NCBI GenBank assembly: GCA_018015315.1
Contig: GCA_018015315.1_3629.1
Length of the DNA stretch: 64,000 bases
From: a phage
Direction: 5' to 3' (one strand)
Shown here: positions 7,623-60,347 of the stretch, piece after piece
How positions within the stretch are numbered: the stretch's first letter is position 1
Layout of the letters: every line of letters starts with the position of its first letter
Position numbers and translations under genes: made by a program
Notes under the pieces: generated by a model
What the model was told of the DNA's origin: nothing
Database searches by the model: none
The model's input: only the letters and a program-made list of their open reading frames with translations

Positions 7623-8477
7623 TTATGCCAGTGCAGCCTCAAAATCTTTCATCATATTTTGGAAAGTTTTTGCCTTACTTAAGGTAACACCGTGCTCTTT
7701 AGCGAAGGTTTGGAGTGCATCTTTCGAACCACTTTTGTCATCTTCGTTGTTAAGAGCTGCGGCTTGGTGCAGTATGGCATCAACATCGCCGTGAGAAGAT
7801 CTTGATTCTTGTGCCTGCTCAGGATCCTGTTCAGTACCTTCCGTACCCTCCTGTGCGGTCGGGCCTGGTGATTCCTCACTGCCACCACCAGGTTCAGTAG
7901 GGCCTACAGGTGGCTCCGGCTCTGGTTCAGGTTCTGGGGCTACTGTAGAAGTCAGCCCAAGATTTACAACCTGAGAACGTTTCTTAGGCCACTCAATGGT
8001 GAAAGTCTGGGTATCTTCTGCATAAGCAACATCGCATTGCTCATCGTTTATGGTCACTTTTTTGGGCATCCCTTCAGGGTCCCACAGATGGCCCTCTGCC
8101 ACTGAAACTTTGAAAGCGGCATCTACCTCTTTAAACACTGACGGGGTGAGTGTGATATTGACATCACCGCTTTGCAGTGTTAAAGTGCTTTCATCAAGGT
8201 TCTCTGTGAAGAACAGAAGAATAACACCCATACGGATAGTTGAGATACCAGTATCAATTGGCAGGCCTGTGTGTTTTGCAATCTTCTCGAAGAAGTCTAC
8301 AATCGTTCTGCATGGATAGTGAACACTTCCAATAACGAACTCTGTTGGTGGCAGCAGGGCTGATAAACCAACATTGATTTCTGGATTGTATTGTGCTAAA
8401 AATTGATAAAAACTTAACTGATTGTTGAAAACTCTTAATAGAGGATCATACTCGACTGGATATACAACTCTATTCAC
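7623..8477 (-). CDS. hypothetical structural protein with (PE)n linker
   Basis: 284 aa; central PEPEPEPEPP low-complexity linker; immediately after major capsid gene. Confidence 0.4.
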   Translation of the reverse strand: MNRVVYPVEYDPLLRVFNNQLSFYQFLAQYNPEINVGLSALLPPTEFVIGSVHYPCRTIVDFFEKIAKHTGLPIDTGISTIRMGVILLFFTENLDESTLTLQSGDVNITLTPSVFKEVDAAFKVSVAEGHLWDPEGMPKKVTINDEQCDVAYAEDTQTFTIEWPKKRSQVVNLGLTSTVAPEPEPEPEPPVGPTEPGGGSEESPGPTAQEGTEGTEQDPEQAQESRSSHGDVDAILHQAAALNNEDDKSGSKDALQTFAKEHGVTLSKAKTFQNMMKDFEAALA

Positions 8478-8498
8478 GGGACACTCCTGTTAAACCCT

Positions 8499-15782: not shown

Positions 15783-15859
15783 TGGTCTCCACGGAGTGAT
15801 TCGAACACTCGACCTCCTGATCCCAAATCAGGCGCTCTACCAAGCTGAGCTACGCGGAG
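15783..15859 (-). tRNA. tRNA-Pro (anticodon TGG)
   Basis: cloverleaf by eye: 7-bp acceptor stem (one G-T), anticodon loop TTTGGGA, T-loop TTCGAAT, encoded CCA. Confidence 0.8.
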
Positions 15860-15870
15860 TATTTACTATT

Positions 15871-15945
15871 TGGTGGCCCTGGGTGGAATTGAACCACCGT
15901 CTGGCGATTATGAGTCGCTTGCTTGAACCTTCCAGCTACAGGGCC
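15871..15945 (-). tRNA. tRNA-Met (anticodon CAT; initiator, elongator or Ile-lysidine not distinguishable)
   Basis: perfect 7-bp acceptor GGCCCTG/CAGGGCC, loop CTCATAA, T-loop TTCAATT, encoded CCA. Confidence 0.8.
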
Positions 15946-15946
15946 T

Positions 15947-16022
15947 TGGTGCTGATGGCAGGACTTGAACCTGCAACATATTGATTACAAATCAATTGCA
16001 CTACCAATTGTGCTACATCAGC
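15947..16022 (-). tRNA. tRNA-Thr (anticodon TGT)
   Basis: acceptor GCTGATG/CATCAGC, anticodon loop TTTGTAA, T-loop TTCAAGT, encoded CCA. Confidence 0.8.
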
Positions 16023-16029
16023 AAAAAGG

Positions 16030-16126
16030 TGCTAGGTGATGGAATCGAACCATCTATGTATTCAACGACTACCTCGTCTATTTTCAGGATTAAAAATCCT
16101 CGCCCTTGCCAAAGGGCTTACCTAGC
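16030..16126 (-). tRNA. atypical type-II tRNA-like gene (Leu-like scaffold, apparent anticodon TTT)
   Basis: perfect acceptor GCTAGGT/ACCTAGC, D-arm, perfect T-arm GATGG-TTCGATT-CCATC, discriminator A; anticodon hairpin AGGATTTTTAATCCT; about 30-nt variable region with GACGA/TCGTT hairpin; CCA not encoded. Confidence 0.45.
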
Positions 16127-16224
16127 TCAGTATGTTGACCATGTTGCTAGTCGGCGATGACGACTGTAACATTTGATAATCCGGTTCTGCTTCCGGCTTT
16201 CGCTTAATTACAAGGTCAACAATG

Positions 16225-16315
16225 TGGCAGAGGATAATGGAATCGAACCATCATCGAGTCATCCTCAACGGGACGGTTTTCAAGACCGCTTGAGCACCAT
16301 TGCTCCCTACCCTCT
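16225..16315 (-). tRNA. tRNA-Ser (anticodon TGA)
   Basis: type-II: acceptor AGAGGGT/ATCCTCT, anticodon loop CTTGAAA, about 20-nt variable arm, discriminator G, encoded CCA. Confidence 0.7.
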
Positions 16316-16432
16316 TTTATTATAAACAATACTGATAATGACACTGATTTTCGAGCAGTTAGTGACTAGTATAAACGACGATAAATACCAATGCCATTAT
16401 CTGTATGATTTATGCATCTAAAAATATAAATT

Positions 16433-16519
16433 TGGTGGGGAGTGGTGGAGTCGAACCACCCGAGTCGCAATGACAATAGATTTACAGTCTACACCGCTAC
16501 CTCTACGGGATAACTCCCC
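16433..16519 (-). tRNA. tRNA-Tyr (anticodon GTA)
   Basis: type-II: acceptor GGGGAGT/ACTCCCC, anticodon loop CTGTAAA, long variable arm, discriminator A, encoded CCA. Confidence 0.8.
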
Positions 16520-16523
16520 AATT

Positions 16524-16598
16524 TGGCACCCCGTACTGGACTCGAACCAGTGTCAACGGCTTAGAAGGCCGCTGCTTTATCCACTAAGCTAACAGGGC
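16524..16598 (-). tRNA. tRNA-Arg (anticodon TCT)
   Basis: anticodon stem-loop GCGGC-CTTCTAA-GCCGT, T-arm ACTGG-TTCGAGT-CCAGT, acceptor with two G-T pairs, encoded CCA. Confidence 0.75.
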
Positions 16599-19532: not shown

Positions 19533-20087
19533 TTACTCCCCGCTGTCAATAGCAAGACTCATTGCAATAAGGTATGCCTCTTCTAATGGTAAGAGTCTCC
19601 CCCACACATCCCAACCGACATCAAACTGCCTGCCAAACAACTGCTGTGTGGTTCCGTGAGCATGACCGAACAGTTGGACTGATCCGTGAGGCTTTCTGTT
19701 CCACTTTGCAAACTGGTAATGGCTCATACAGATCAAATTCTTGTTGTGGCGAAGCTCGTAATAATCTACAACCTCATGACCGAACTCTTTCATAATTCTG
19801 ACAGTCGTCCTTGTGTCATGGTTACCACGAACAAGAATAATATGTCCGTTCAACATATTTAGAACATCTGGGAGCAATTTGTTGATATTCTTATCATTAG
19901 TGCACGCAATATCTCCCAAGTGAAACACAGTGTCTGCAGGCGACACAACAGAGTTCCACTCGGCGATGATTCCCGCATTCATACTGTCAAGATTGTGATC
20001 ATACTGAGATCTGTGTTTTTGACATGAATCAAACTCCATGACCCGCTGGTGGAGAAAGTGTGTGTCGCTTGTTACAAAGTATTTCAT
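19533..20087 (-). CDS. calcineurin-like metallophosphoesterase
   Basis: motifs DTHF, GDIA, GNHD in order; start moved to ATG (MKYFVTSDTHF) with GAGGA RBS overlapping stop of kinase gene. Confidence 0.75.
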   Translation of the reverse strand: MKYFVTSDTHFLHQRVMEFDSCQKHRSQYDHNLDSMNAGIIAEWNSVVSPADTVFHLGDIACTNDKNINKLLPDVLNMLNGHIILVRGNHDTRTTVRIMKEFGHEVVDYYELRHNKNLICMSHYQFAKWNRKPHGSVQLFGHAHGTTQQLFGRQFDVGWDVWGRLLPLEEAYLIAMSLAIDSGE

Positions 20088-20094
20088 ACATTCC

Positions 20095-20505
20095 TCATTT
20101 AAGTTTAATGCAGTTTTTAAGCTGGCGTTCCATACGATCCACAACCTTGTCTGGAACATCATGAATGCTTTTATTACCGTGGCGGTTTTCAACCACGATC
20201 ACGGTATAACTATACCCATGACTGATTGCCATGTCAACATATTCCTGCACATGTTTTTCTTTTGTAAACGTATTACTTACCACGATACGGTCGTATCCCA
20301 TACGCATCATATCTTCTACGTTATCTTTGCACCATTTTGCTGCGAGTGTTACTTTACTTGCATCCCAGTTGTAATTGCCGTCATCGTCATACCAGAACAT
20401 ATCGTTCTCAAAATGTGGATACAGACCTTCTAAAGATAGCGCATTTGCCAGTGTTGATTTGCCAGACCCTGGCAGACCACGCACGATATATAGCATTTTA
20501 GACAT
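20095..20505 (-). CDS. P-loop kinase (polynucleotide-kinase-like)
   Basis: Walker A GLPGSGKST at N-terminus, about 135 aa; start at ATG (MSKMLYIV) with GGAGG RBS. Confidence 0.6.
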   Translation of the reverse strand: MSKMLYIVRGLPGSGKSTLANALSLEGLYPHFENDMFWYDDDGNYNWDASKVTLAAKWCKDNVEDMMRMGYDRIVVSNTFTKEKHVQEYVDMAISHGYSYTVIVVENRHGNKSIHDVPDKVVDRMERQLKNCIKLK

Positions 20506-20533
20506 AGCAATCCTCCGTTTTAATTTTAATGAT

Positions 20534-20562
20534 AGTATACCTAACTGTTTTGTTAATTTCAA
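20534..20562 (-). promoter_or_regulatory. sigma70-like promoter for kinase/phosphoesterase operon
   Basis: minus-strand TTGAAA-17 bp-TATACT upstream of RBS. Confidence 0.45.
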
Positions 20563-20623
20563 GTGTTGACACTAGGTTATTTGTGTGGCAGGATAGACTG
20601 ACAAAATGACAAATGAGGAACGT

Positions 20624-21541
20624 ATGATGAAGTATTTTAATGCAGATGACCTAGTAGACAAAGGTCTTGTAACCAGTCGGTATTATCCAGATCTTGGATT
20701 AAAGATCTATAAATATGCCAGAAAAGTATTCTACAACAATCTGTGGCATTTGTCTCCGCGTTTACTGGAGTGCCGAGGTATTGTTGTTGGCAATGAGGGG
20801 AATGTTGTGGCATGGCCTTTCACAAAAGTATTCAACTTAGGAGAAAACTCCACCAACCTACCGGACAGTAAACTTGTTACTGCGGTAGAGAAAAAGAACG
20901 GATTCCTCGGTGTGGTATCATCTCATAAAGGTGAACTATTGTTCTCAACAACCGGGTCTCTTGATTCTCCATATTGTAACCTTGCAAAGGAAACCATCCA
21001 AGAGCAATGTGGTAATTTAGATCTTATCAAGAAGGTTATGGGCAATGAAAACATGACATTCATGTTTGAAATTTGTCACCCTTCAGATCCGCATATTGTT
21101 CAAGAAGACCATGGCGCATATTTGATAGGTTGCAGATATAATGATTCTGGAATAATGCTACCAGAAGCAGCTTTAGATGGGATTGCCAAATACCTTGGTG
21201 CAAAACGTCCTCACACTGTGCGTGAAATCCCGTTCAGCTATGCAAAAGAATTAGCTGCAGAAACAAGGGGCGAAGGGTATATGATCCGTAAGCCTTACTA
21301 CCCTTATGACCTGCAGCTGAAGATCAAGTCTCCATACTATTTGGCACGGAAGGCCGTAATGAGAGGTAAAGCATGGAAGATTTGGGATGACGATATTTTT
21401 AAACGTGTTGACGAGGAGTTTTACGGTATGGTAAAATTTATTCGTAGCAACTATACAGAAGATGTGTGGAATTGCTTATTAGAGCAGGAGCGTCGCGAGA
21501 TACTGGACTGCTATTTCCACAACGAGGACTACATGAAATGA
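20624..21541 (+). CDS. RNA-ligase-like nucleotidyltransferase
   Basis: ligase motifs: I EKKNGF, III FMFEI, IV EGYMIRK, V LKIKSP; start taken at ATG 20624 after GAGGA (track start 20606). Confidence 0.5.
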   Translation: MMKYFNADDLVDKGLVTSRYYPDLGLKIYKYARKVFYNNLWHLSPRLLECRGIVVGNEGNVVAWPFTKVFNLGENSTNLPDSKLVTAVEKKNGFLGVVSSHKGELLFSTTGSLDSPYCNLAKETIQEQCGNLDLIKKVMGNENMTFMFEICHPSDPHIVQEDHGAYLIGCRYNDSGIMLPEAALDGIAKYLGAKRPHTVREIPFSYAKELAAETRGEGYMIRKPYYPYDLQLKIKSPYYLARKAVMRGKAWKIWDDDIFKRVDEEFYGMVKFIRSNYTEDVWNCLLEQERREILDCYFHNEDYMK

Positions 21542-21888
21542 AGAAGTGGATTGTGTGGCTTGATGATTTTAGAGATCCGTCAGATTATGGACTCCCAGAC
21601 GCTCTGTGGCTAAAGAATTCTTCTGAATTTATGGATTTTCTTAATGATAAGAGAAAGCTCTACAGACGCGTATCTGAATGGTATTTTGACAATGATCTAG
21701 GTGAAGTTCTTGAAGGGTACGACTGCTTCTCTGCGCTAGAGGAGAAACTTGTATTCGGAAAGCCACCACTTATTGACAACGTGATTATTTTCGTGCATAC
21801 TTCTAATCCATCGGCAGCTCGTAAATTTATGCTTGCTGCTGACTCATTCAAGAAGTTTGGAATAGAGATCAAACAAAACATCTACTGA
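21538..21888 (+). CDS. hypothetical protein coupled to Sir2-like gene
   Basis: 116 aa; ATG overlaps ligase stop (ATGA); ends 9 bp before Sir2-like start. Confidence 0.4.
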   Translation: MKKWIVWLDDFRDPSDYGLPDALWLKNSSEFMDFLNDKRKLYRRVSEWYFDNDLGEVLEGYDCFSALEEKLVFGKPPLIDNVIIFVHTSNPSAARKFMLAADSFKKFGIEIKQNIY

Positions 21889-21896
21889 GGACACTT

Positions 21897-22658
21897 ATGC
21901 GACGACTGATTATTATCTCCGGTGCTGGTTTGAGCGCTGAATCTGGTATTCCCACTTTCCGATCTGGTAGCACTGCAATGTGGGAGAATTTCAGCATCGA
22001 TGAGGTGTGCAACATCCACACCTTTGCCAAGAACTACTATAAGGTGCATGACTTTTACAATGCACGTCGTGTAGCTCTGGGCAGTGTTGATCCTAACCTT
22101 GCACATCTTCGGATCGCTGAGTGGTATTCCCGCTGGTCTGGTCGTGTGATCAACCTTACCACCAATGTAGATGATTTGCTGGAGCGTGCTGGTGTAAAAC
22201 ATGAAGATATTTTACATGTCCACGGGTATTTGCCTGAAATCACCTACGAAGATGCTGAAGGTAATGATGTAATTAAAAATATCGGATACACGGAGGTAGA
22301 TACAGGCAAGTATACCTGGGTTAAGCCCAATGTAGTGTTCTTCGGTGAGGTTGCTCCTAAGTATACAGACATGTATGACCTGTTGACATCTCTCACAAGC
22401 AATGATATGGTGATCCTAGTAGGTTGTTCTAACACAGTTATTAATTTTAACTGGGAATTGTTTCCTGCTACTTGTAAAGGCACAAAACTGCTGATTGTAA
22501 ACAAGTATGACTCGCAGAGTGCAGATGGAAGTGGCATTTCACGTAGCGACCTTTATCAATATGAGGATCGCGGGATCCCTGTATGGTTTAACGGTGCTGT
22601 TGACGCTTTCTCTGATAAAGCATTTATTGAAACTGTAGAAAACTTTATGGAACTTTAA
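21897..22658 (+). CDS. Sir2-family protein (no zinc ribbon)
   Basis: GAGLSAESGIPTFRS, TTNVDDL, catalytic HG, VVFFGE motifs; no CxxC pairs. Confidence 0.75.
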   Translation: MRRLIIISGAGLSAESGIPTFRSGSTAMWENFSIDEVCNIHTFAKNYYKVHDFYNARRVALGSVDPNLAHLRIAEWYSRWSGRVINLTTNVDDLLERAGVKHEDILHVHGYLPEITYEDAEGNDVIKNIGYTEVDTGKYTWVKPNVVFFGEVAPKYTDMYDLLTSLTSNDMVILVGCSNTVINFNWELFPATCKGTKLLIVNKYDSQSADGSGISRSDLYQYEDRGIPVWFNGAVDAFSDKAFIETVENFMEL

Positions 22659-22671
22659 AAGGAGACCTTTA

Positions 22672-23385
22672 ATGCTGAATACTAAACTGATCGACAACCT
22701 GGAAAAACTGTCTCAGCCTGAAAACTACCTTTGGTCTGCCAACTGGGTGGAAAACTGGAACCGTGTGGCAGCTAAAGTGAAAAAATCATACACACCATTC
22801 GAATTACAGCTTAGCTTCATTGAGGAAGAGTTCAATGAGGTTTTGGAAGAGCTGGAGAAAGGTGATGGTGGAGATCACCTGCTAAAAGAGGCCTGCGATC
22901 TTCACGTTGTCACAAGTTATGCCGCTTATCTTGTTAATGATAATCACGAAAAGTGGTCAAACCTGTTTGATAATCCACGAGGTCTTAAGTTCAAGATCGG
23001 TGAGTTCTATGATACACTGATCGCTGCGAAAAACACATCCAAGCAAAGAGCGTCAGCTTACCGCTTAGCGGAGTTGTCAACAGCTTTGCTGTTCCAGCTT
23101 CGCGGCGATGTGTGTGGGATGATGCGGAAGGTTCTCAAATCTAATGACAGTAAGTTTGCACGGATCAACCATCTACGATATTCTCACAGTGCCAGTGCAG
23201 ATATGTCTACTGAATTGCTCATAGAGTTAGAGATTGAAGATCTTGAGCGTCGTTTTGGTGGTCGCTACGAAGGTTTCGTTGCTAAAGAGGAGTTCTACAA
23301 CGGTAATAAAGTTATTATATTCCTTGACAGTAAAGGTAAGATTATGAAGCCTTCGAGCTTCAAGGATGTAACAGAGTATATTTAA
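22672..23385 (+). CDS. MazG-like nucleotide pyrophosphohydrolase domain protein
   Basis: N-terminal EEEFNEVLEELEKGD...KEACDLH resembles MazG EExxE/D motif. Confidence 0.4.
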   Translation: MLNTKLIDNLEKLSQPENYLWSANWVENWNRVAAKVKKSYTPFELQLSFIEEEFNEVLEELEKGDGGDHLLKEACDLHVVTSYAAYLVNDNHEKWSNLFDNPRGLKFKIGEFYDTLIAAKNTSKQRASAYRLAELSTALLFQLRGDVCGMMRKVLKSNDSKFARINHLRYSHSASADMSTELLIELEIEDLERRFGGRYEGFVAKEEFYNGNKVIIFLDSKGKIMKPSSFKDVTEYI

Positions 23386-23391
23386 CAACAT

Positions 23392-23418
23392 AGCCGGGAT
23401 TACCCGGCTTTACTTATT
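23392..23418 (+). terminator. rho-independent terminator
   Basis: AGCCGGG-ATTA-CCCGGCT followed by TTTACTTATT. Confidence 0.5.
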
Positions 23419-23756: not shown

Positions 23757-24012
23757 TCTTGCTAAACCTGTAGAAGCACACCAGTTTGATGGAAGCTCTT
23801 CATCAGTATCTGATCTGCAACGGTGGATTGATACAGGTGTGTTTACATCGTCACCTGTTCGGACCAGAGATATTCGTCGCATGTGTGAGCTTGTTGAGCC
23901 GTTTGGCAACTTGGTTTTGTACCAGGGAGATTGGTTAGTTGACTTTATGGGAGACTGGTCGGTAATGAGTAAAGAAGAGATGTTTAAAATTTTTAAGGAA
24001 GAGGCCGAGTAA
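23743..24012 (+). CDS. hypothetical protein
   Basis: 89 aa ORF overlapping neighbours. Confidence 0.4.
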   Translation: MPLFNLAKPVEAHQFDGSSSSVSDLQRWIDTGVFTSSPVRTRDIRRMCELVEPFGNLVLYQGDWLVDFMGDWSVMSKEEMFKIFKEEAE

Positions 24013-25295
24013 TGCATCAAATCAAAACAACACTGTACGCACTGAACAAAGATGGCAGCTACCAACAGTGGAAAGTATTCACTGATGGCGAAAAGGTTAT
24101 CGTAGAGTTTGGCAAGCTTGACGGTAAATTGCAGTACAAAGAGACGGTATGCACACCTAAAAACGTAGGTCGTGCCAACGAGACTACAGCTGAGCAACAG
24201 GCCGAGCTTGAGGCTATCAGCAAGTGGGAAAAACAAGTCCGTCTGGGGTATGTTGAAAACATGGAAGATTGCGAGCAGGGTGTTGATCTTTTACCTATGC
24301 TGGTGCATGACTACCTGAAGCGTGGCAAGGCACTTAAATTACCTTGCTGGATCTTGCGTAAGTTAGATGGCCTTCGTCTGCTTGTTGTTTTCCAAAATGG
24401 TGAGCCTAAATTTATTTCCCGTGGTAATAAGTCCTACCCTATTCAAGGAAAGCTTTTAGAGCAACTTCGTTCTTTCCATTCTACCACTGGGATTAAACAA
24501 CTTGATGGGGAACTATACATTCATGGTCTTCCTTTGCAGAAAATAGTGTCTCTTGCTAAACGGTGGCGCACACAGGAAGAGATTCAGGCCGAGATCGATA
24601 AAGACTATGAGGCAGATAAAAAACGCCGTCATGCAGCAATTAAGGCAGGCTTATCAACATACAAAAACTTCAACAAGGTAGATATTCCTGTCGATGTTGA
24701 GCCTGTTCGTGATGATTTGCGTTACGGTGGGTACTGTAGCTACGATCTGGAGTATCACATTTTTGATATTCCTAGCGACAAGGTGTGGTGGGATCCAGAA
24801 ACAGAGTCTGGACGCTGCAAGGATCTTATGGATGCAGAGGATACCGTTACCACTCTGATGCTTGATCATATCAAGGTTGTTGACGCAGAGCTTGCGTACA
24901 CAGTTGATCATTGCGAAGAATCTGTTGGTATATTCATGTCCGAAGGATATGAAGGTACTATCATGCGTAATTTCTGCGGTAAATATGAGTATGGTCAGCG
25001 AACATCTGAAGCATTGAAATGGAAAAAGTTCAACGACGCAGAGGTGAAAGTTATTGACGTTGAGAAAGATAAGAATGATGAAGGTGTTCTTATCTGTGTT
25101 GACAAGGAAGGTGTTGTTGTTAAAATGAAGATGAAAGGCACGCACGAGGAGCGTAGCTATGACAGGATGCAGGAAATGATCGGCAAGTTTGTCACCTTCA
25201 AATACCAAGCAAGGACAGAAGACAACAACTACCAATTCCCTGTCGGTATCTGCGTCCGAAATGTTAACCCAGACACTTGGGAGGTGCTTGAATGA
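24012..25295 (+). CDS. ATP-dependent DNA ligase
   Basis: 427 aa; motif I KLDGLR (KxDGxR) and downstream ligase-like motifs. Confidence 0.8.
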   Translation: MHQIKTTLYALNKDGSYQQWKVFTDGEKVIVEFGKLDGKLQYKETVCTPKNVGRANETTAEQQAELEAISKWEKQVRLGYVENMEDCEQGVDLLPMLVHDYLKRGKALKLPCWILRKLDGLRLLVVFQNGEPKFISRGNKSYPIQGKLLEQLRSFHSTTGIKQLDGELYIHGLPLQKIVSLAKRWRTQEEIQAEIDKDYEADKKRRHAAIKAGLSTYKNFNKVDIPVDVEPVRDDLRYGGYCSYDLEYHIFDIPSDKVWWDPETESGRCKDLMDAEDTVTTLMLDHIKVVDAELAYTVDHCEESVGIFMSEGYEGTIMRNFCGKYEYGQRTSEALKWKKFNDAEVKVIDVEKDKNDEGVLICVDKEGVVVKMKMKGTHEERSYDRMQEMIGKFVTFKYQARTEDNNYQFPVGICVRNVNPDTWEVLE

Positions 25296-51979: not shown

Positions 51980-52249
51980 ATGAAAATTAAATTATTCAAA
52001 ACTGAGCTGGCAGACAAAAACTGTGGACTGGTTGAAGGCATGATTGTTGAAGCACAACCAGTGGACTATATGAAAGTGGTTCGTGATGCCCTGGGTGAAG
52101 GTTTTGATCTGATGGAGCCAGCTCTGCGCGAAGATGTTATCGAGATGGCTAAAAAGCACACACCTGAAGGTTTGGTGGTGTTTGTTGCACCGGGTAACGG
52201 AGAAGAGTTGATTGTAACTCCTGATGTGTATGAGATTGTAGAGGAATAA
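51980..52249 (+). CDS. small acidic protein, paralog family (YEIVEE tail)
   Basis: MKIKLFK N-terminus, C-terminal PDVYEIVEE. Confidence 0.45.
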   Translation: MKIKLFKTELADKNCGLVEGMIVEAQPVDYMKVVRDALGEGFDLMEPALREDVIEMAKKHTPEGLVVFVAPGNGEELIVTPDVYEIVEE

Positions 52250-52340
52250 TCCTGCTTGGATTAGCATACTTACTCGATAAGGAAGATTTGTAATTATTTG
52301 TGGGAAAGGAATCCCAATCTCTTACCAGAGGTGATACTAT

Positions 52341-52604
52341 ATGATTGTTTATTTTAAAACTTCAGGTGGATACCCTGATTCTCAAAGCTTGATCGGGAAA
52401 ACGTGCACAGCATACTCACCTCTTGATGAAGAGGTAGGTGATATTCTACGAAATATGTATCGGATTGACCCCCAAGAAGCTTTTGATCAAAACCTTGTAT
52501 TTGTCAAGGGCTCAGACATGAAGTCTTTGGGAGCATTCCCTGAAGCAGATGATGATGCCGTTTATTCGTTCATGACCCCTTTTGAAGCTATGGTTGTTGG
52601 GTGA
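52341..52604 (+). CDS. small acidic protein, MKVK family relative
   Basis: VKGSDMKSLGA core. Confidence 0.45.
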   Translation: MIVYFKTSGGYPDSQSLIGKTCTAYSPLDEEVGDILRNMYRIDPQEAFDQNLVFVKGSDMKSLGAFPEADDDAVYSFMTPFEAMVVG

Positions 52605-57333: not shown

Positions 57334-57683
57334 CACACAATTAGCTGCCAGGCTAAAGTGCTGGAAGCACCTATAACACATCTTTCAACTAAATTTCCTA
57401 CCACCACAATCACTTACCTCCCACACATGACTGTTTGCTTGTTTAGTGAGCAGTCATGCCTTGACATTCTTGCCTATCCTGATAAAATTAAGTTCTTCTC
57501 TTTTCTTTTACCGAGTAATTCGGGTTTTCTGTTCTCTTCGGTTTGAAGGGGTATGGAGATACACCTGAGTGAACAGGGTGAACAACCGAACATTTGGCTA
57601 TGGCATTAGCATGGCGAAGCGGACGGGTGACGAAAGAGGGGCCGGAGGACACCAGTCACTGCCATATGGTATATGGGTGATAA

Positions 57684-58224
57684 CCTGAAGAGTCTGAATA
57701 AGTGTTTAAGTACCAGTCAGAGGAAAAGGTGAATGGTAGCCGAAGGGGGAGGGGGGTTTCTTGTATCTTTAATTTGTATATTATGTATACACTTGTAAAC
57801 CAATCTCATTTGAATTTGTTTACCACACAAAGTGGATAGAGACAAATATTACCTATTAAACTTGAATTATTTATAGAAAATACCACAACACTACTTAAGT
57901 CTTTGATTTTACACACAAATCCTGCAGATATTCACCCTCCATATTTAACATACTTGTAACATATTCCATACTCTACCTGCCCGATCAATTCACCCAACTA
58001 CATCCCCATATTTTCCCTGTCTGTACTACCCCTGCCCCGCCGGGAGTCCCGTCATATCTGGCTTTCCAGCAAATATCACACCCACAAATATCATTGCCTG
58101 AAGAGGGTTTCATCCCATAGTACATGCCTTACCTGAAGAGCGCTTCATATACCCCGTAAATTTTTTAATTGACACCCTCCCCGCCGCCGGAGGGGGTTGG
58201 CTTTTCCCACACAGACCTGAAGAG
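57684..58224 (+). repeat. dispersed direct repeat CCTGAAGAG (4 copies)
   Basis: exact 9-mers at 57684, 58097, 58132, 58216 in non-coding DNA. Confidence 0.7.
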
Positions 58225-58785
58225 CCAGCCAGAAATATCTGAACAGGTCCAGCTATGCCACGATTTTGTGCTTGTCCTACAGGAGTGCTTCCCTGTCAGG
58301 AGCCGGTAGCGACTGGAGTGCTGCCAGGCGGACGAAATGGGAATACTTCTCATTCTTATAACAATTCTCAAATATCGAGGCAGTGAGACAAATTAATAGG
58401 CTTTGCCGTTCACACAATGGCACAACATTTGCAGCCTATCTTGTGGGGGGTGAATGAGAATACCTATCATTGCGAGAATAGTTATCATTACGGGCAATTT
58501 AACATAATACCCATTATGCGCACCACTGGCGATATATACAGGGGTTAATAACATGGTGGACTGTTTACGCACATTACAATTGCATTACTTATTATTTGTG
58601 TGGGATATAGTTAGCCACCAACAGATTGCATAATAACCTGCAGACTTCCAGCCGTCCAGACGCCTAAGCGCCTACACAATAAGGATTATACATACACAAC
58701 TGAATGTAAACAGGGCCGCAAAAATGCTACCATACAAGATTGTAAATTTTTCATGCAGCACTTGACAAAGAGGAGAAAAACTTGT

Positions 58786-58875
58786 CTGACATACTGGTGA
58801 CATAATATGACACTTTAGACACAATAGTGACATACTGGACACGATATGACACACTGGGCATAATTGACATACCTG
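58786..58875 (+). repeat. iteron-like array of (A/T)GACA(C/T)A motifs at 10-11 bp spacing
   Basis: about 8 copies, including TGACATACTGG twice and TGACACACTGG once. Confidence 0.7.
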
Positions 58876-58983
58876 ACTGTTTACGCTGTCACTATTCACT
58901 CGCTTACATGCTTAATAGACTACATGACTAATAGTTTACATAGCTAACTGTTCACGTATAGATTGTTTACTTAAAAATGATAA

Positions 58984-59264
58984 GCCATGCCATTCGTTTG
59001 CATGATAAAGATTAGCAAGTTAATAATCTTTCACTGGCTATGCCAGGTGACCTTTTGTCACCTCTTCGGGTGTTTCTATGACATAATATAAAAGCAGGGC
59101 AACTATTAGCAGATCTATAGTTGCCTTGCTTGTTATGTCATGATTAACTAAATACAAGGCAACTATGATCTGATTAATAGATTGCAGACAAACTATCACG
59201 GGGGTGATGGTTACTGCTTTTATATTATGTCGCGACTCCGTCGCGCCATGCCATTCGTTTGCAT
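58984..59264 (+). repeat. 20-bp perfect direct repeat GCCATGCCATTCGTTTGCAT (2 copies)
   Basis: copies at 58984-59003 and 59245-59264. Confidence 0.8.
59098..59125. repeat. palindrome GGCAACTAT-10 bp-ATAGTTGCC
   Basis: 9-bp inverted repeat; further half-site copies near 59160 and 59265. Confidence 0.75.
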
Positions 59265-59880
59265 AGTTGCCTTATTGTTACAGATAAAATAATTATATTG
59301 TTAATTATTTCTTATCTTTCTCTTAGTCATCTAATGATTCCAGTCAGTATAGTAATGTACAGTAAACATTAGACGACTAAAGATTTATCTGCTTATAATA
59401 ACTTACCGTGACAATTCCGGACTGTTTACGAAAAATGTTGACACCTGAGCTGATTTATGTTATGCAATTTACACGAATAATTATTTTATGCAGGTATTGA
59501 CTATTACGTTATTCTATGGTCGGAATAAATACTTAGCGGACTATAGAATGGTGACGCTACGTGAATTCTGGAATTTAGTGGCTATAGTTATACCCGATTT
59601 TTCACGTAGAACACGCTTTTGTGGTTATGTAAGTGTATGACTTATAAAGATTTTTAGTTGTTGACAAGGCACTGAAGATATGCATCAGGTTAAATTTTGT
59701 GCAATAGCTGCATTACGTGCAATTTTGGAAGGAAAAACGTGTAAAAATGGCCCTGCTACCACACAATGAAAGATTATGCAATAGCTATTTTACATGTATA
59801 TTTGTACAGTGTGTGGGATTGATGGCTAGTCAATTATTCCACTTGCCAGGCTGGGCCGTTTGTGGTAGGAGAAATACAGA

Positions 59881-59909
59881 CAAAAAGAAAGGGGCCTTTT
59901 AAAGCCCCT
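59881..59909 (-). terminator. rho-independent terminator
   Basis: GGGGC..GCCCC hairpin followed by U-tract on minus strand; 20 bp downstream of stop of 59928-60347. Confidence 0.6.
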
Positions 59910-59927
59910 GATAGTTTAGTTAAGAAA

Positions 59928-60347
59928 TTATAATGATTCGTATATTTGATAGATTCGATTTGCCAGGTCATTACGATAGCGGAATTTTTCATCACGCTTG
60001 ATCATCAGATCTTTGAAGCCATATTCTTTAAGCACTTCATTAACTTTATAGCGGCATACCTTCATATTATCTTGCGCGTCACCGATAAACTTGTTGCTAT
60101 GATGCATGGCTTTGATCTCTTCCTCCAGGACCAGGGCAACTACGCGGACCGGATCAAGCTGATATGCGGTAACATCAATGCGGCATTGTAAACGGCTTTT
60201 AACGTCTGCCACCGGATATACTGCAACCTCTTCCCCGTCAACATTCACAATAACCAGTTTACCATCAATTTCAAAACCTTTTGCGGCTGGGCCGTGACAA
60301 AAAGCGTTATCAAAGCTGTATGCGGGATTGTTAGATTTAATATTCAT
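59928..60347 (-). CDS. hypothetical protein
   Basis: 139 aa; own promoter and terminator. Confidence 0.5.
   Translation of the reverse strand: MNIKSNNPAYSFDNAFCHGPAAKGFEIDGKLVIVNVDGEEVAVYPVADVKSRLQCRIDVTAYQLDPVRVVALVLEEEIKAMHHSNKFIGDAQDNMKVCRYKVNEVLKEYGFKDLMIKRDEKFRYRNDLANRIYQIYESL

What the first reader, a model, noticed from the sequence alone, without database searches (positions are those of the whole stretch)
21538..22658. Phage-encoded Sir2-family protein without zinc ribbon, coupled to a small upstream ORF
The 253-aa protein has the Sir2 NAD-binding and catalytic signatures (GAGLSAESGIPTFRS, TTNVDDL, HG, VVFFGE) but no CxxC...CxxC zinc module. It is translationally linked to a 116-aa ORF whose ATG overlaps the RNA-ligase stop. 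Sir2 domains are known as NAD-consuming or deacylase/ADP-ribosyl transferase modules; a phage copy next to RNA-repair and MazG-like genes suggests manipulation of host NAD or nucleotide signalling.
Basis: partly seen in the sequence, partly recalled or inferred. Interest (0 to 1): 0.65.

Follow-up and report, generated by a model that had tools for sequence, protein, structure and literature searches.

The report
Zinc-less phage sirtuin in RNA-repair operon
This is the well-annotated Sir2-like gene of an rV5-type E. coli phage, sitting in a four-gene operon with an RNA ligase, a small "cREC" phosphoesterase-like protein and a MazG-like pyrophosphatase; the arrangement was already described in silico in 2022 as a probable NAD-dependent RNA-repair system, but nobody has tested what the enzyme does.

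Summary
Window 21897-22658 encodes a 253-aa Sir2-family protein (Pfam E 7e-28) with a confident sirtuin model. It lacks the four zinc cysteines. The 116-aa upstream ORF starts in an ATGA overlap with the RNA-ligase stop.

The window is a Vequintavirus (98-99% identical to rV5 and relatives). The small ORF is a cREC domain (PF20274). Rnl1, cREC, Sir2 and a MazG-like gene form one tight unit that ends at a terminator-like hairpin. A 5'-kinase and a metallophosphoesterase are transcribed divergently, and a tRNA cluster lies 3 kb upstream.

The closest folds are the deacylase sirtuins CobB and SIRT5, not defence NADases. The zinc module keeps its length and strands; only the ligands are lost. That loss correlates with a Q-to-T change in the TQNxD motif.

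Iyer et al. 2022 already name phage V5 as the prototype of this neighbourhood and predict a KptA/Tpt1-like removal of RNA 2'-phosphate. Skliros et al. 2016 already noted zinc-less phage sirtuins.

cREC-Sir2 adjacency is lineage-specific. In related ~150-kb phages Sir2 lies ~33 kb from the cassette, and T5-like phages pair it with a HAD "Swiss-army-knife" phosphatase.

I found no experimental test of its function. I score it as already known and of modest interest.

The parts
21897..22658 (+). Sir2-family protein, 253 aa (equivalent to rV5 gp080). Class-III-like sirtuin with a Cys-less zinc module and TTNVD in place of TQNxD.
   Evidence: Pfam PF02146 E 6.9e-28. phrog_2162 E 1.5e-108. AF2 pLDDT 89.6. 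Foldseek best hit CobB, E 2e-19, TM 0.75-0.84. Residue mapping to SIRT5. Invariant residues.
21538..21888 (+). cREC (cyclic-phosphate-processing receiver-like) protein, 116 aa (equivalent to rV5 gp079). Its ATG overlaps the ligase stop (ATGA).
   Evidence: Pfam PF20274 E 9.1e-14, 52 bits against a cutoff of 27. phrog_1479. Conserved D9 and D10 (>=90%), invariant D51 and D53, T88 (>=90%) with invariant S89, and invariant K96. AF2 pLDDT 92.7. Best PDB folds are receiver domains, TM about 0.6, E 9e-3.
20606..21541 (+). Rnl1-type (T4 RnlA-like) RNA ligase, 311 aa. First gene of the unit.
   Evidence: Pfam RNA_lig_T4_1 E 9e-15. phrog_562 E 9e-66. rV5 gp078 annotation.
22672..23385 (+). MazG-like nucleotide pyrophosphohydrolase, 237 aa. 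Last gene of the unit.
   Evidence: phrog_671 E 5.8e-22. No Pfam or PDB sequence hit. Called MazG superfamily in PMC9503650.
23392..23409 (+). GC-rich hairpin (7 bp, 6 GC) followed by a T-rich tail. Terminator-like end of the Rnl1-cREC-Sir2-MazG unit.
   Evidence: Consensus scan. No terminator-like site on the + strand inside 20606-23385; the only one listed there lies on the - strand at 21351-21330.
20095..20505 (-). P-loop polynucleotide-kinase-like protein (rV5 gp077 equivalent), transcribed divergently from the ligase.
   Evidence: Pfam AAA_33 E 1.7e-10. phrog_2071 and phrog_505 polynucleotide kinase. Start taken from the rV5 annotation.
19533..20087 (-). Calcineurin-like metallophosphoesterase (rV5 gp076 equivalent). 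Candidate 2',3'-end healing enzyme.
   Evidence: Pfam Metallophos and Metallophos_2. phrog_547 E 8e-52. rV5 annotation.
24012..25295 (+). ATP-dependent DNA ligase. Context gene that travels with the cassette in all related myovirus loci.
   Evidence: Pfam DNA_ligase_A_M and OB_2. phrog_114. Co-localisation.
15783..16598 (-). tRNA gene cluster (Pro, Met, Thr, one odd tRNA-like gene, Ser, Tyr, Arg) about 3 kb upstream of the cassette. Context only.
   Evidence: ARAGORN. Rfam tRNA hits.

Best explanation
The Sir2-like protein is the NAD+-using member of a phage RNA (probably tRNA) break-repair module. Host or competitor ribonucleases cut RNA and leave 2',3'-cyclic-phosphate and 5'-OH ends.

Proposed steps:
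1. The divergently transcribed kinase phosphorylates the 5' end.
2. The metallophosphoesterase and/or cREC open or remove the cyclic phosphate.
3. The Rnl1 ligase seals the break.
4. Where a 2'-phosphate is left, at the junction or at an end, the sirtuin transfers ADP-ribose from NAD+ onto it. [quoted passage not shown] This is the chemistry of Tpt1/KptA carried out on an unrelated fold.
5. cREC and the MazG-like pyrophosphatase clear that ADP-ribose by-product.

Shown here: gene identities, operon anatomy, the sirtuin fold with an intact catalytic His/Asn/Asp, a conserved Tyr/Arg anion pocket, clade-specific active-site changes, and recurrent linkage to RNA end-processing genes. Inferred, and first proposed by Iyer et al. 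2022: the RNA substrate, the 2'-phosphotransferase chemistry and the division of labour between the enzymes.
For: - Operon anatomy. Rnl1-cREC-Sir2-MazG are spaced at -4, 8 and 13 nt and end at a terminator-like hairpin. The kinase and metallophosphoesterase are divergent neighbours.
- Linkage to RNA end-processing genes. 43 of 59 IMG/VR Sir2 loci carry at least one such family within 6 kb. These fall into two phage lineages with different partners. The rV5/Mydo-like myoviruses carry Rnl1, cREC, kinase and MPE, with the gene order rearranged. The T5-like phages carry HAD_SAK_2, PF18143, E 4e-20.
- Genome-level co-occurrence. All 11 IMG/VR contigs with a close cREC (L061-L072) also carry this Sir2 on the same contig.
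- Phage restriction. Only 2 weak hits among 185,579 species genomes, against 1012 phage records.
- Catalytic residues. H109, N90 and D92 are invariant in the close clade. Y54 and R57, equivalent to the SIRT5 Y102/R105 anion-binding pair, are also invariant in the close clade. In the wider representative set R57 varies.
- Derived active site. The sub-clade carries correlated changes next to the NAD ribose site: Q89T, GTS to G[S/C/A]S, and loss of zinc ligands. Counts are 37 with T and no Cys against 76 with Q and Cys; Fisher p 6e-16, not corrected for phylogeny. This suggests a changed reaction or substrate.
- Literature. The same neighbourhood and the same prediction are published with phage V5 as the prototype (PMC9503650). 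Some Tpt1 enzymes also remove terminal 2'/3'-phosphates with NAD+ (abstract of PMC6573784).
Against: - No sirtuin has been shown to act on RNA. No experimental paper on this family turned up in four literature searches.
- The fold and every deacylase-relevant residue are retained, including F21/R22, H109, VVFFGE and the Tyr/Arg pair. The nearest structures are protein deacylases.
- Kinase, metallophosphoesterase and Rnl1 already make a complete T4-style heal-and-seal pathway that needs no NAD+ (established knowledge of T4 Pnkp/Rnl1).
- In the ~150-kb phage group Sir2 is ~33 kb from the intact cassette, next to a DNA methyltransferase-like gene and DUF7275. 16 of 59 loci show no RNA-repair neighbour.
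- The myovirus loci are related by descent, so their synteny counts as few independent observations.
Confidence: 0.4

Rival explanations
1. It is what its fold says: a CobB/SIRT5-like NAD+-dependent protein lysine deacylase (deacetylase or desuccinylase). It resets the acylation state of host or phage proteins during infection. Candidate targets include acetyl-CoA synthetase, as proposed for Vibrio phage sirtuins, or the catalytic lysines of the neighbouring RNA and DNA ligases.
For: - The best sequence and structure matches are E. coli CobB, SIRT5 and Sir2-Af1.
- The best NCBIfam hits are protein deacylase models.
- The class-III Tyr/Arg pair, the catalytic His and the FGE loop are conserved.
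- Canonical zinc-containing relatives lie in the same wider family.
- In Mydo-like phages Sir2 directly abuts the ATP-dependent DNA ligase.
- The deacetylase reading has been published for KVP40-like phage sirtuins (PMC5107563).
Against: - Scores fall far below every NCBIfam deacylase cutoff, for example 122.6 against 243 bits.
- The derived Q89T and GTS changes and the loss of zinc ligands mark divergence from canonical deacylases.
- The host already has CobB.
- This reading does not explain the recurrent linkage to RNA end-healing genes in two phage lineages.
- No target is known.
Confidence: 0.3
2. It is an ADP-ribosyltransferase that modifies a macromolecule other than RNA 2'-phosphate. 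The target could be a host anticodon nuclease or other defence protein, which it would inactivate. It could also be an RNA or DNA end, in the manner of macrodomain-linked SirTM enzymes.
For: - Sirtuins can ADP-ribosylate proteins (cited in PMC9503650).
- An intact NAD site with an altered ribose-side residue, Q89T.
- A downstream pyrophosphatase that could process ADP-ribose derivatives.
Against: - No macro, NADAR or ARH partner in the window cassette.
- The structure resembles deacylases.
- No candidate target was identified.
Confidence: 0.12
3. It is a free NADase, or an NAD-signal-manipulating enzyme, that depletes or remodels host NAD+ or nucleotide signalling.
For: SIR2 domains are NADase effectors in many defence systems (literature listed). 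The MazG-like neighbour could act on nucleotide signals.
Against: - No PADLOC defence-SIR2 model matches.
- No defence SIR2 among the top 50 structural matches.
- No sensor or effector partner is present.
- NAD+ depletion would harm a lytic phage.
- No NAD-salvage genes are annotated in the corresponding rV5 stretches inspected, record 57.8-110 kb.
Confidence: 0.05

Closest known systems
Phage sirtuin-centred RNA-repair neighbourhood, type 2 of Iyer, Burroughs, Anantharaman & Aravind 2022 (Viruses 14:1977, PMC9503650), prototyped by Escherichia phage V5 and Proteus phage Mydo
   Same: This is the same system. The window is 98% identical to rV5 over the cassette. It contains every listed component: sirtuin, T4-like RNA ligase, cREC, nucleotide kinase, MazG-superfamily pyrophosphatase and calcineurin-like phosphoesterase.
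   Different: Nothing substantive differs. Added here:
- operon boundaries;
- Cys-less but length-preserved zinc module;
- the Q89T correlation;
- class-III Tyr/Arg retention;
- the observation that Sir2 is unlinked from the cassette in ~150-kb relatives.
E. coli CobB / human SIRT5 (class III sirtuins, lysine deacetylase/desuccinylase)
   Same: - Rossmann plus small-domain fold, TM 0.75-0.84.
- GAGxSxxSGIPxFR loop.
- Catalytic His.
- N and D of TQNxD.
- The YxxR anion pocket.
- KPxVVFFGE.
   Different: - No zinc-binding cysteines.
- Q to T in TQNxD.
- GTS to GCS.
- About 27% identity.
- Below all NCBIfam cutoffs.
- Phage-restricted and embedded in an RNA-repair operon.
Tpt1/KptA NAD+-dependent RNA 2'-phosphotransferase
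   Same: [quoted passage not shown] The functional setting next to RNA ligase and end-healing enzymes is also the same. This is inference and published prediction.
   Different: The fold is unrelated, since Tpt1 belongs to the ART superfamily. There is no sequence or structure match here. Any similarity would be convergence, and the activity is untested.
Zinc-less Sir2/CobB of KVP40-like Vibrio phages (Skliros et al. 2016, PMC5107563)
   Same: Same wider phage sirtuin family: Vibrio phage nt-1 and relatives are hit at 46-50% identity. The absence of zinc ligands was already noted there.
   Different: The genomic context differs (NAD salvage genes, according to the paper). A different function was proposed (activation of Acs by deacetylation). 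The sequence match covers only about 76-79% of the query.
Defence-type SIR2 NADases (ThsA, DSR1/2, SIR2-HerA, SIR2-APAZ)
   Same: Sir2 superfamily without a zinc ribbon; NAD+ as substrate.
   Different: No PADLOC match. Not among the top structural matches. No sensor or partner domains. Encoded by lytic phages rather than defence islands.

Membership tests
Sir2/sirtuin superfamily (PF02146) | Profile match above the curated threshold and a Rossmann-type NAD-binding fold with a GAGxS loop | tested here: met
   98.2 bits against a cutoff of 24. AF2 model pLDDT 89.6. Foldseek E 2e-19 to CobB.
Sir2/sirtuin superfamily (PF02146) | Catalytic His, and the Asn/Asp of the (S/T)QNxD motif | tested here: met
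   H109, N90 and D92 are invariant in 75 close homologues and nearly so in 142 representatives. The Gln of the motif is replaced by Thr (T89).
Sir2/sirtuin superfamily (PF02146) | Cys4 zinc ribbon in the small domain | tested here: not met
   No Cys between H109 and F149. 0-1 Cys in 111 of 112 parsed close homologues. The module's length and three strands are retained.
Sir2/sirtuin superfamily (PF02146) | NAD+-dependent catalysis (deacylation or ADP-ribosyl transfer) | not testable with these tools
   Needs enzyme assays.
Class III sirtuins (CobB/SIRT5) | YxxR pair that binds an anionic acyl group | tested here: met
   Y54/R57 align with SIRT5 Y102/R105. Both are invariant in the close clade.
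Class III sirtuins (CobB/SIRT5) | Score above the NCBIfam CobB/deacylase model cutoffs | tested here: not met
   Best score 122.6 bits against a cutoff of 243. prot_deacyl_CobB scores 104 against 320.
Defence-type SIR2 NADases | Match to PADLOC SIR2 effector models, or closest fold to ThsA/DSR/HerA-SIR2 | tested here: not met
   No PADLOC hit at E<=0.01. The top 50 PDB fold matches are all CobB, SIRT5, Sir2-Af1 or SIRT2.
Tpt1/KptA 2'-phosphotransferase | Homology to the Tpt1 (ART-superfamily) fold | tested here: not met
   Only PF02146 is found and the fold is a sirtuin. Any relation is functional analogy only.
Tpt1/KptA 2'-phosphotransferase | NAD+-dependent removal of RNA 2'-phosphate with release of ADP-ribose>P | not testable with these tools
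   A published prediction only (PMC9503650).
cREC (PF20274), for the 116-aa ORF | Profile match above threshold, a receiver-like fold and conserved acidic active-site residues | tested here: met
   52.3 bits against a cutoff of 27. Conserved D9 and D10 (>=90%), invariant D51 and D53, T88 (>=90%) with invariant S89, and invariant K96. The best PDB folds are receiver domains, though only at TM about 0.6 and E 9e-3.
cREC (PF20274), for the 116-aa ORF | Genomic association with RNA ligase or repair genes and never with a histidine kinase | tested here: met
   Next to Rnl1 or MPE in all 11 informative loci among L061-L072; L069 is too short to judge. tblastn hits in 356 phage records are often annotated beside an RNA ligase.
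cREC (PF20274), for the 116-aa ORF | Cyclic-phosphodiesterase activity | not testable with these tools
   The family is described as experimentally uncharacterised in PMC9503650.
Iyer et al. 2022 type-2 phage sirtuin RNA-repair neighbourhood | Co-located sirtuin, T4-like RNA ligase, cREC, nucleotide kinase and MazG, with or without a calcineurin-like phosphoesterase | tested here: met
   All six lie within window 19533-23385. The region is 98% identical to the named prototype rV5.

The most novel reading that the evidence does not exclude
The phage sirtuin would be the first sirtuin that works on nucleic acid. It would be an RNA 2'-phosphotransferase (or terminal 2'/3'-phosphate remover) convergent with Tpt1. 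The class-III Tyr/Arg anion pocket would be re-used to hold a phosphate, and the Q89T and zinc-loss changes would adapt the cleft to RNA. cREC would then be the first catalytic receiver-fold cyclic phosphodiesterase. Together they would form a yeast-style 2'-phosphate RNA repair route in a bacterial virus. The idea is already published as a prediction, so the novelty would lie in demonstrating it.
Probability: 0.35. Interest if true: 0.75.

Novelty: already known. Interest (0 to 1): 0.3.

Why it matters
If the published prediction is right, sirtuins would gain a new substrate class, RNA phosphate. Phages would then have a second, NAD+-dependent way to undo tRNA and RNA cleavage by host anticodon nucleases and toxin RNases. 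That bears on phage host range and on how defence systems are evaded. The family is large: about 2% of sequenced phages carry it, including T5 and the rV5-like therapeutic and typing phages. A single biochemical test would therefore annotate more than a thousand genomes. As a scan finding it adds little, because the gene is routinely annotated and the neighbourhood has been described with this phage species as the prototype.

Tried and rejected
- PADLOC scan of Sir2, cREC, Rnl1 and MazG: no hits. I rejected the defence or anti-defence NADase reading.
- PDB sequence searches:
  - cREC gave only a chance CD58 hit at E 0.6.
  - The MazG-like protein gave none.
  - The 162-aa phrog_652 protein that occupies the cREC position in L044, L046 and L052 gave none. 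My guess that it is NADAR-like could not be supported.
- Genome-contig scan for cellular members: only 2 weak hits, so there are no cellular contexts to compare. The scan is pattern-based and may miss divergent members.
- Search for a sigma-70 promoter for the + strand unit. There is a perfect TTGACA at 20566-20571, but no good -10 at 16-18 nt. The transcription start is unresolved.
- Test of whether loss of the 'VYP' acyl-lysine loop proline distinguishes the derived clade. It does not: the position varies in both the canonical and the derived groups.
- Literature searches for experimental work on phage, T5 or rV5 sirtuins, plus a check of the NARP3 paper: nothing found.
- Opposite-strand ORFs inside the Sir2 gene (106 aa at 21882-22202 and 97 aa at 22244-22537). 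I treated them as spurious because they lie entirely within a strongly supported gene. They were not tested further.
Full report
**1. What is in the sequence**

- Rnl1-type RNA ligase: 20606-21541.
- 116-aa ORF: 21538-21888.
- 253-aa Sir2-like ORF: 21897-22658.
- 237-aa ORF: 22672-23385.

Reading the DNA, the ligase ends ...ATG AAA TGA. The 116-aa ORF's ATG (21538-21540) shares two bases with that stop, giving an ATGA overlap. Its own TGA is followed 8 nt later by the Sir2 ATG, with GAGGA spanning the stop. The Sir2 stop is followed 13 nt later by the next ATG, after AAGGAGA.

A consensus scan found no terminator-like site on the + strand inside the four genes. It found a 7-bp, 6-GC hairpin with a T-rich tail at 23392-23409, directly after the fourth gene. 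The four genes therefore look like one transcription unit.

Upstream there is a perfect TTGACA at 20566-20571 but no convincing -10. The transcription start is unresolved.

**2. Identity of the genes**

Pfam and PHROG scans give the following.

| Gene | Evidence |
|---|---|
| Sir2 | PF02146, E 6.9e-28; phrog_2162, E 1.5e-108 |
| 116-aa ORF | cREC_REC 'cyclic-phosphate processing receiver domain', PF20274, E 9.1e-14, 52 bits against a cutoff of 27 |
| Ligase | RNA_lig_T4_1, E 9e-15 |
| Fourth gene | phrog_671 nucleotide pyrophosphohydrolase (MazG-like), E 5.8e-22; no Pfam hit |
| 20095-20505 (-) | P-loop polynucleotide-kinase-like protein (AAA_33; phrog_505) |
| 19533-20087 (-) | calcineurin-like metallophosphoesterase |

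The last two are transcribed divergently from the ligase. An ATP-dependent DNA ligase follows at 24012-25295. A cluster of six or seven tRNA genes lies at 15783-16598.

**3. Where the window comes from**

The 2.8-kb cassette is 99.2% identical to Escherichia phage MiataMamis and 98% identical to rV5. It is found at 90% identity or better in 121 phage records. In RefSeq rV5 the genes are gp076-gp084, and gp080 is annotated 'Sir2 (NAD-dependent deacetylase)'.

A tblastn search with the Sir2 protein hits 1012 of 50,697 phage records. These include Vequintavirinae, T5 and other Demerecviridae, Mydo-like and ~150-kb myoviruses, KVP40-like Vibrio phages and ~350-kb jumbo phages.

The clade is essentially phage-restricted. 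A pattern-based scan of one genome from each of 185,579 prokaryotic species gave only two weak hits.

**4. The sirtuin itself**

*Sequence matches.* phmmer against PDB sequences gives E. coli CobB (1S5P, E 3e-21), then SIRT5 and Sir2-Af1.

*Residue mapping.* Using the SIRT5 alignment:
- Phage F21/R22 correspond to F70/R71 of the cofactor loop.
- Y54/R57 correspond to Y102/R105. From established knowledge of SIRT5 and CobB, this pair binds the carboxylate of succinyl- and malonyl-lysine.
- T89-N90-D92 correspond to Q140-N141-D143.
- H109 corresponds to the catalytic H158.

Y54, R57, N90, D92, H109 and F148-F149-E151 are invariant in 75 close homologues.

*Model and fold.* An AlphaFold2 model built on that alignment is confident: pLDDT 89.6, pTM 0.88. 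Foldseek against the PDB returns CobB first (E 2e-19, TM 0.75-0.84). SIRT5, Sir2-Af1 and SIRT2 follow, and there is no defence-type SIR2 in the top 50. PADLOC models give no hit.

*The zinc module.* The segment between HG and FFGE is 43 residues here, against 46 in CobB. It forms three strands (110-118, 124-128, 142-146) and contains no cysteine. 111 of the 112 close homologues that a regex could parse, out of the 120 retrieved, have 0-1 Cys there. The module is therefore retained but de-metallated, not deleted.

*How far the loss extends.* I scanned all 1.84 billion 50%-identity representatives and aligned the best 141 with the query.

| Residue at position 89 | Cys-less module | At least 3 Cys |
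|---|---|---|
| T | 37 | 11 |
| Q | 7 | 76 |

Fisher p is 6e-16, not corrected for relatedness. Module length stays near 45 residues throughout. The derived group also changes GTS to G[S/C/A]S.

The window protein thus belongs to a derived sub-clade of a family whose other members look canonical. Its derived changes cluster around the NAD-ribose side of the active site.

**5. The cREC protein**

There are 55 homologues, all carrying PF20274. The alignment shows conserved D9 and D10 (in 90% or more of sequences; WLDD), invariant D51 and D53 (FDNDLG), T88 (in 90% or more) with invariant S89-N90-P91 (VHTSNP), and invariant K96. This is the acidic pair, phospho-acceptor Asp, Thr/Ser and Lys quintet of receiver domains; the comparison rests on established knowledge of CheY.

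The AF2 model is confident, pLDDT 92.7. Its best PDB neighbours are receiver domains (Sln1 and bacterial response regulators), but only at TM about 0.6 and E 9e-3. No cREC structure or assay exists, and PMC9503650 calls the family experimentally uncharacterised.

**6. Is the Sir2-cREC coupling conserved?**

Only partly. I looked at 59 IMG/VR loci carrying this Sir2, scanned their flanks with the window's proteins and clustered the neighbouring genes.

- **rV5-like and Mydo-like myoviruses (135-148 kb).** They carry MPE, Rnl1, cREC, kinase, Sir2, DNA ligase and MazG. The order is rearranged, typically Rnl1-cREC-kinase-Sir2-DNA ligase.
- **L044, L046 and L052.** A 162-aa phrog_652 protein of unknown function sits between the kinase and Sir2, where cREC would be.
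- **A ~150-kb group.** The cREC-MPE-(Rnl1-kinase)-DNA ligase-MazG cassette is intact, but Sir2 lies ~33 kb away on the same contig. Compare L068, L070, L071 and L072 with L032, L035, L034 and L033. There Sir2 sits beside a DNA-methyltransferase-like gene and DUF7275.
- **T5-like phages (104-123 kb; L003 matches phage T5's genome length, 121,750 bp).** They show no detected cREC or ligase. A HAD_SAK_2 'Swiss-army-knife RNA repair' phosphatase (PF18143, E 4e-20) lies two small genes downstream of Sir2 in 28 loci.

Overall, 43 of 59 loci carry an RNA end-processing gene within 6 kb. Only one, the Vequintavirus locus, has cREC immediately adjacent. These loci represent only a few independent lineages.

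So cREC is bound to the ligase cassette. Sir2 is a looser member that nevertheless keeps turning up beside RNA end-healing enzymes in two unrelated phage families.

**7. Prior literature**

- **Iyer, Burroughs, Anantharaman and Aravind 2022** (PMC9503650, section 3.7.3).
[quoted passage not shown] - Their third type is the T5-like (SP15) sirtuin plus HAD pairing.
  - They propose that the sirtuin acts like KptA/Tpt1 to remove 2'-phosphates, with cREC and the others either generating the 2'-phosphate or processing ADP-ribose>P.
  - Term searches of the main text for 'zinc' and 'ribbon' found no mention of the sirtuin's zinc module.
- **The same group's jumbo-phage paper** (PMC7824862) defined cREC.
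- **Skliros et al. 2016** (PMC5107563) had already reported the absence of zinc ligands in the Sir2/CobB of KVP40-like Vibrio phages. They proposed deacetylation of acetyl-CoA synthetase and listed T5 among the carriers.
- Four literature searches found no experimental characterisation of any member.

**8. Mechanism and rivals**

*Best-supported reading (confidence 0.4).* This is the published one: an NAD+-dependent, Tpt1-like step inside an RNA heal-and-seal module. My independent support for it is:
- the operon anatomy;
- the recurrent but differently composed RNA-repair neighbourhoods;
- genome-level co-occurrence with cREC;
- phage restriction;
- the conserved anion-binding Tyr/Arg pair;
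- the derived active-site changes.

*Main rival (0.3).* A CobB-like protein deacylase. The fold and all the catalytic residues favour it. So does the fact that kinase, phosphoesterase and Rnl1 already suffice for T4-style repair without NAD+. Sir2's separation from the cassette in the ~150-kb phages points the same way.

*Minor rivals.* ADP-ribosylation of another target (0.12) and NADase or NAD-signal manipulation (0.05) have little specific support.

*Shown:* gene identities, folds, conserved residues and linkage patterns. *Inferred:* the substrate and the chemistry.

**9. Verdict**

The feature is already known in the literature as an in-silico prediction, with this phage species as the prototype, and the zinc-less state was noted earlier for related phage sirtuins.

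The small additions made here are:
- the four-gene unit and its terminator;
- the retention of a de-metallated zinc module;
- the correlation between Q89T and zinc loss;
- the class-III pocket;
- the lineage-specific nature of cREC adjacency.

The open question is biochemical, and it is clearly testable.

Noticed in passing
window 57650-59930: About 2.3 kb with no ORF longer than 75 aa, at the point where gene orientation flips. GC falls to 35-38% at 58500-59999. The stretch is dense in short repeats: five copies of an ATNCCNGACTGTTTACG-like 17-mer, a 19-nt tandem array at 58799-58869, and a perfect 18-nt inverted repeat at 59080-59097 / 59214-59231. The corresponding rV5 stretch (record 104013-106618) has no annotated feature. 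It may be a replication origin or a regulatory region.
   Followed up: partly
window 16028-16126 (-): An extra tRNA-like gene inside the tRNA cluster. ARAGORN calls it 'tRNA-???' with a 4-base anticodon (atcc). Rfam tRNA scores 37.5 bits. It is not among the six tRNAs annotated in rV5. It could be an intron-containing, frameshift-suppressor-like or degenerate tRNA.
   Followed up: no
L044 5302-5787, and the equivalent positions in L046 and L052: In three 146-149-kb phages a 162-aa protein sits between the polynucleotide kinase and Sir2, where cREC sits in Mydo-like phages. It matches phrog_652 (unknown function) and has no Pfam or PDB sequence hit. It may be a functional substitute for cREC. 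My guess that it is NADAR-like could not be supported.
   Followed up: partly
L032 2712-6007 (~150-kb phages), upstream of Sir2: In the phage group where Sir2 is unlinked from the RNA-repair cassette, it is preceded by a conserved block. The block holds a DUF7277+DUF7275 protein (334 aa), a DNA-methyltransferase-like protein (phrog_757) and two proteins of unknown function (phrog_8514, phrog_9509). The methyltransferase-like gene is also the immediate upstream neighbour of Sir2 in the 90-kb phage locus L048.
   Followed up: partly
L003 (matches phage T5's genome length, 121,750 bp) 7651-8478: Two tandem paralogous DUF7415 genes (142 and 130 aa; phrog_2502) follow the HAD_SAK_2 phosphatase downstream of the T5 Sir2. 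The family is the most abundant neighbour family in T5-like Sir2 loci (60 members across the loci). Its function is unknown.
   Followed up: no
window about 52000-52350 (equivalent to rV5 gp139, record 98197-98514): rV5 annotates a RaiA-like ribosome-associated translation inhibitor (hibernation factor) in the stretch the window covers, an unusual gene for a lytic phage. I saw it only in the rV5 annotation and did not check it in the window.
   Followed up: no
window 20566-20605: The intergenic region between the divergent kinase and RNA-ligase genes has a perfect -35 hexamer (TTGACA, 20566-20571), but no good -10 at 16-18 nt and no Shine-Dalgarno sequence before the ligase ATG. This raises the possibility of a non-canonical or leaderless start for the four-gene unit.
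   Followed up: partly
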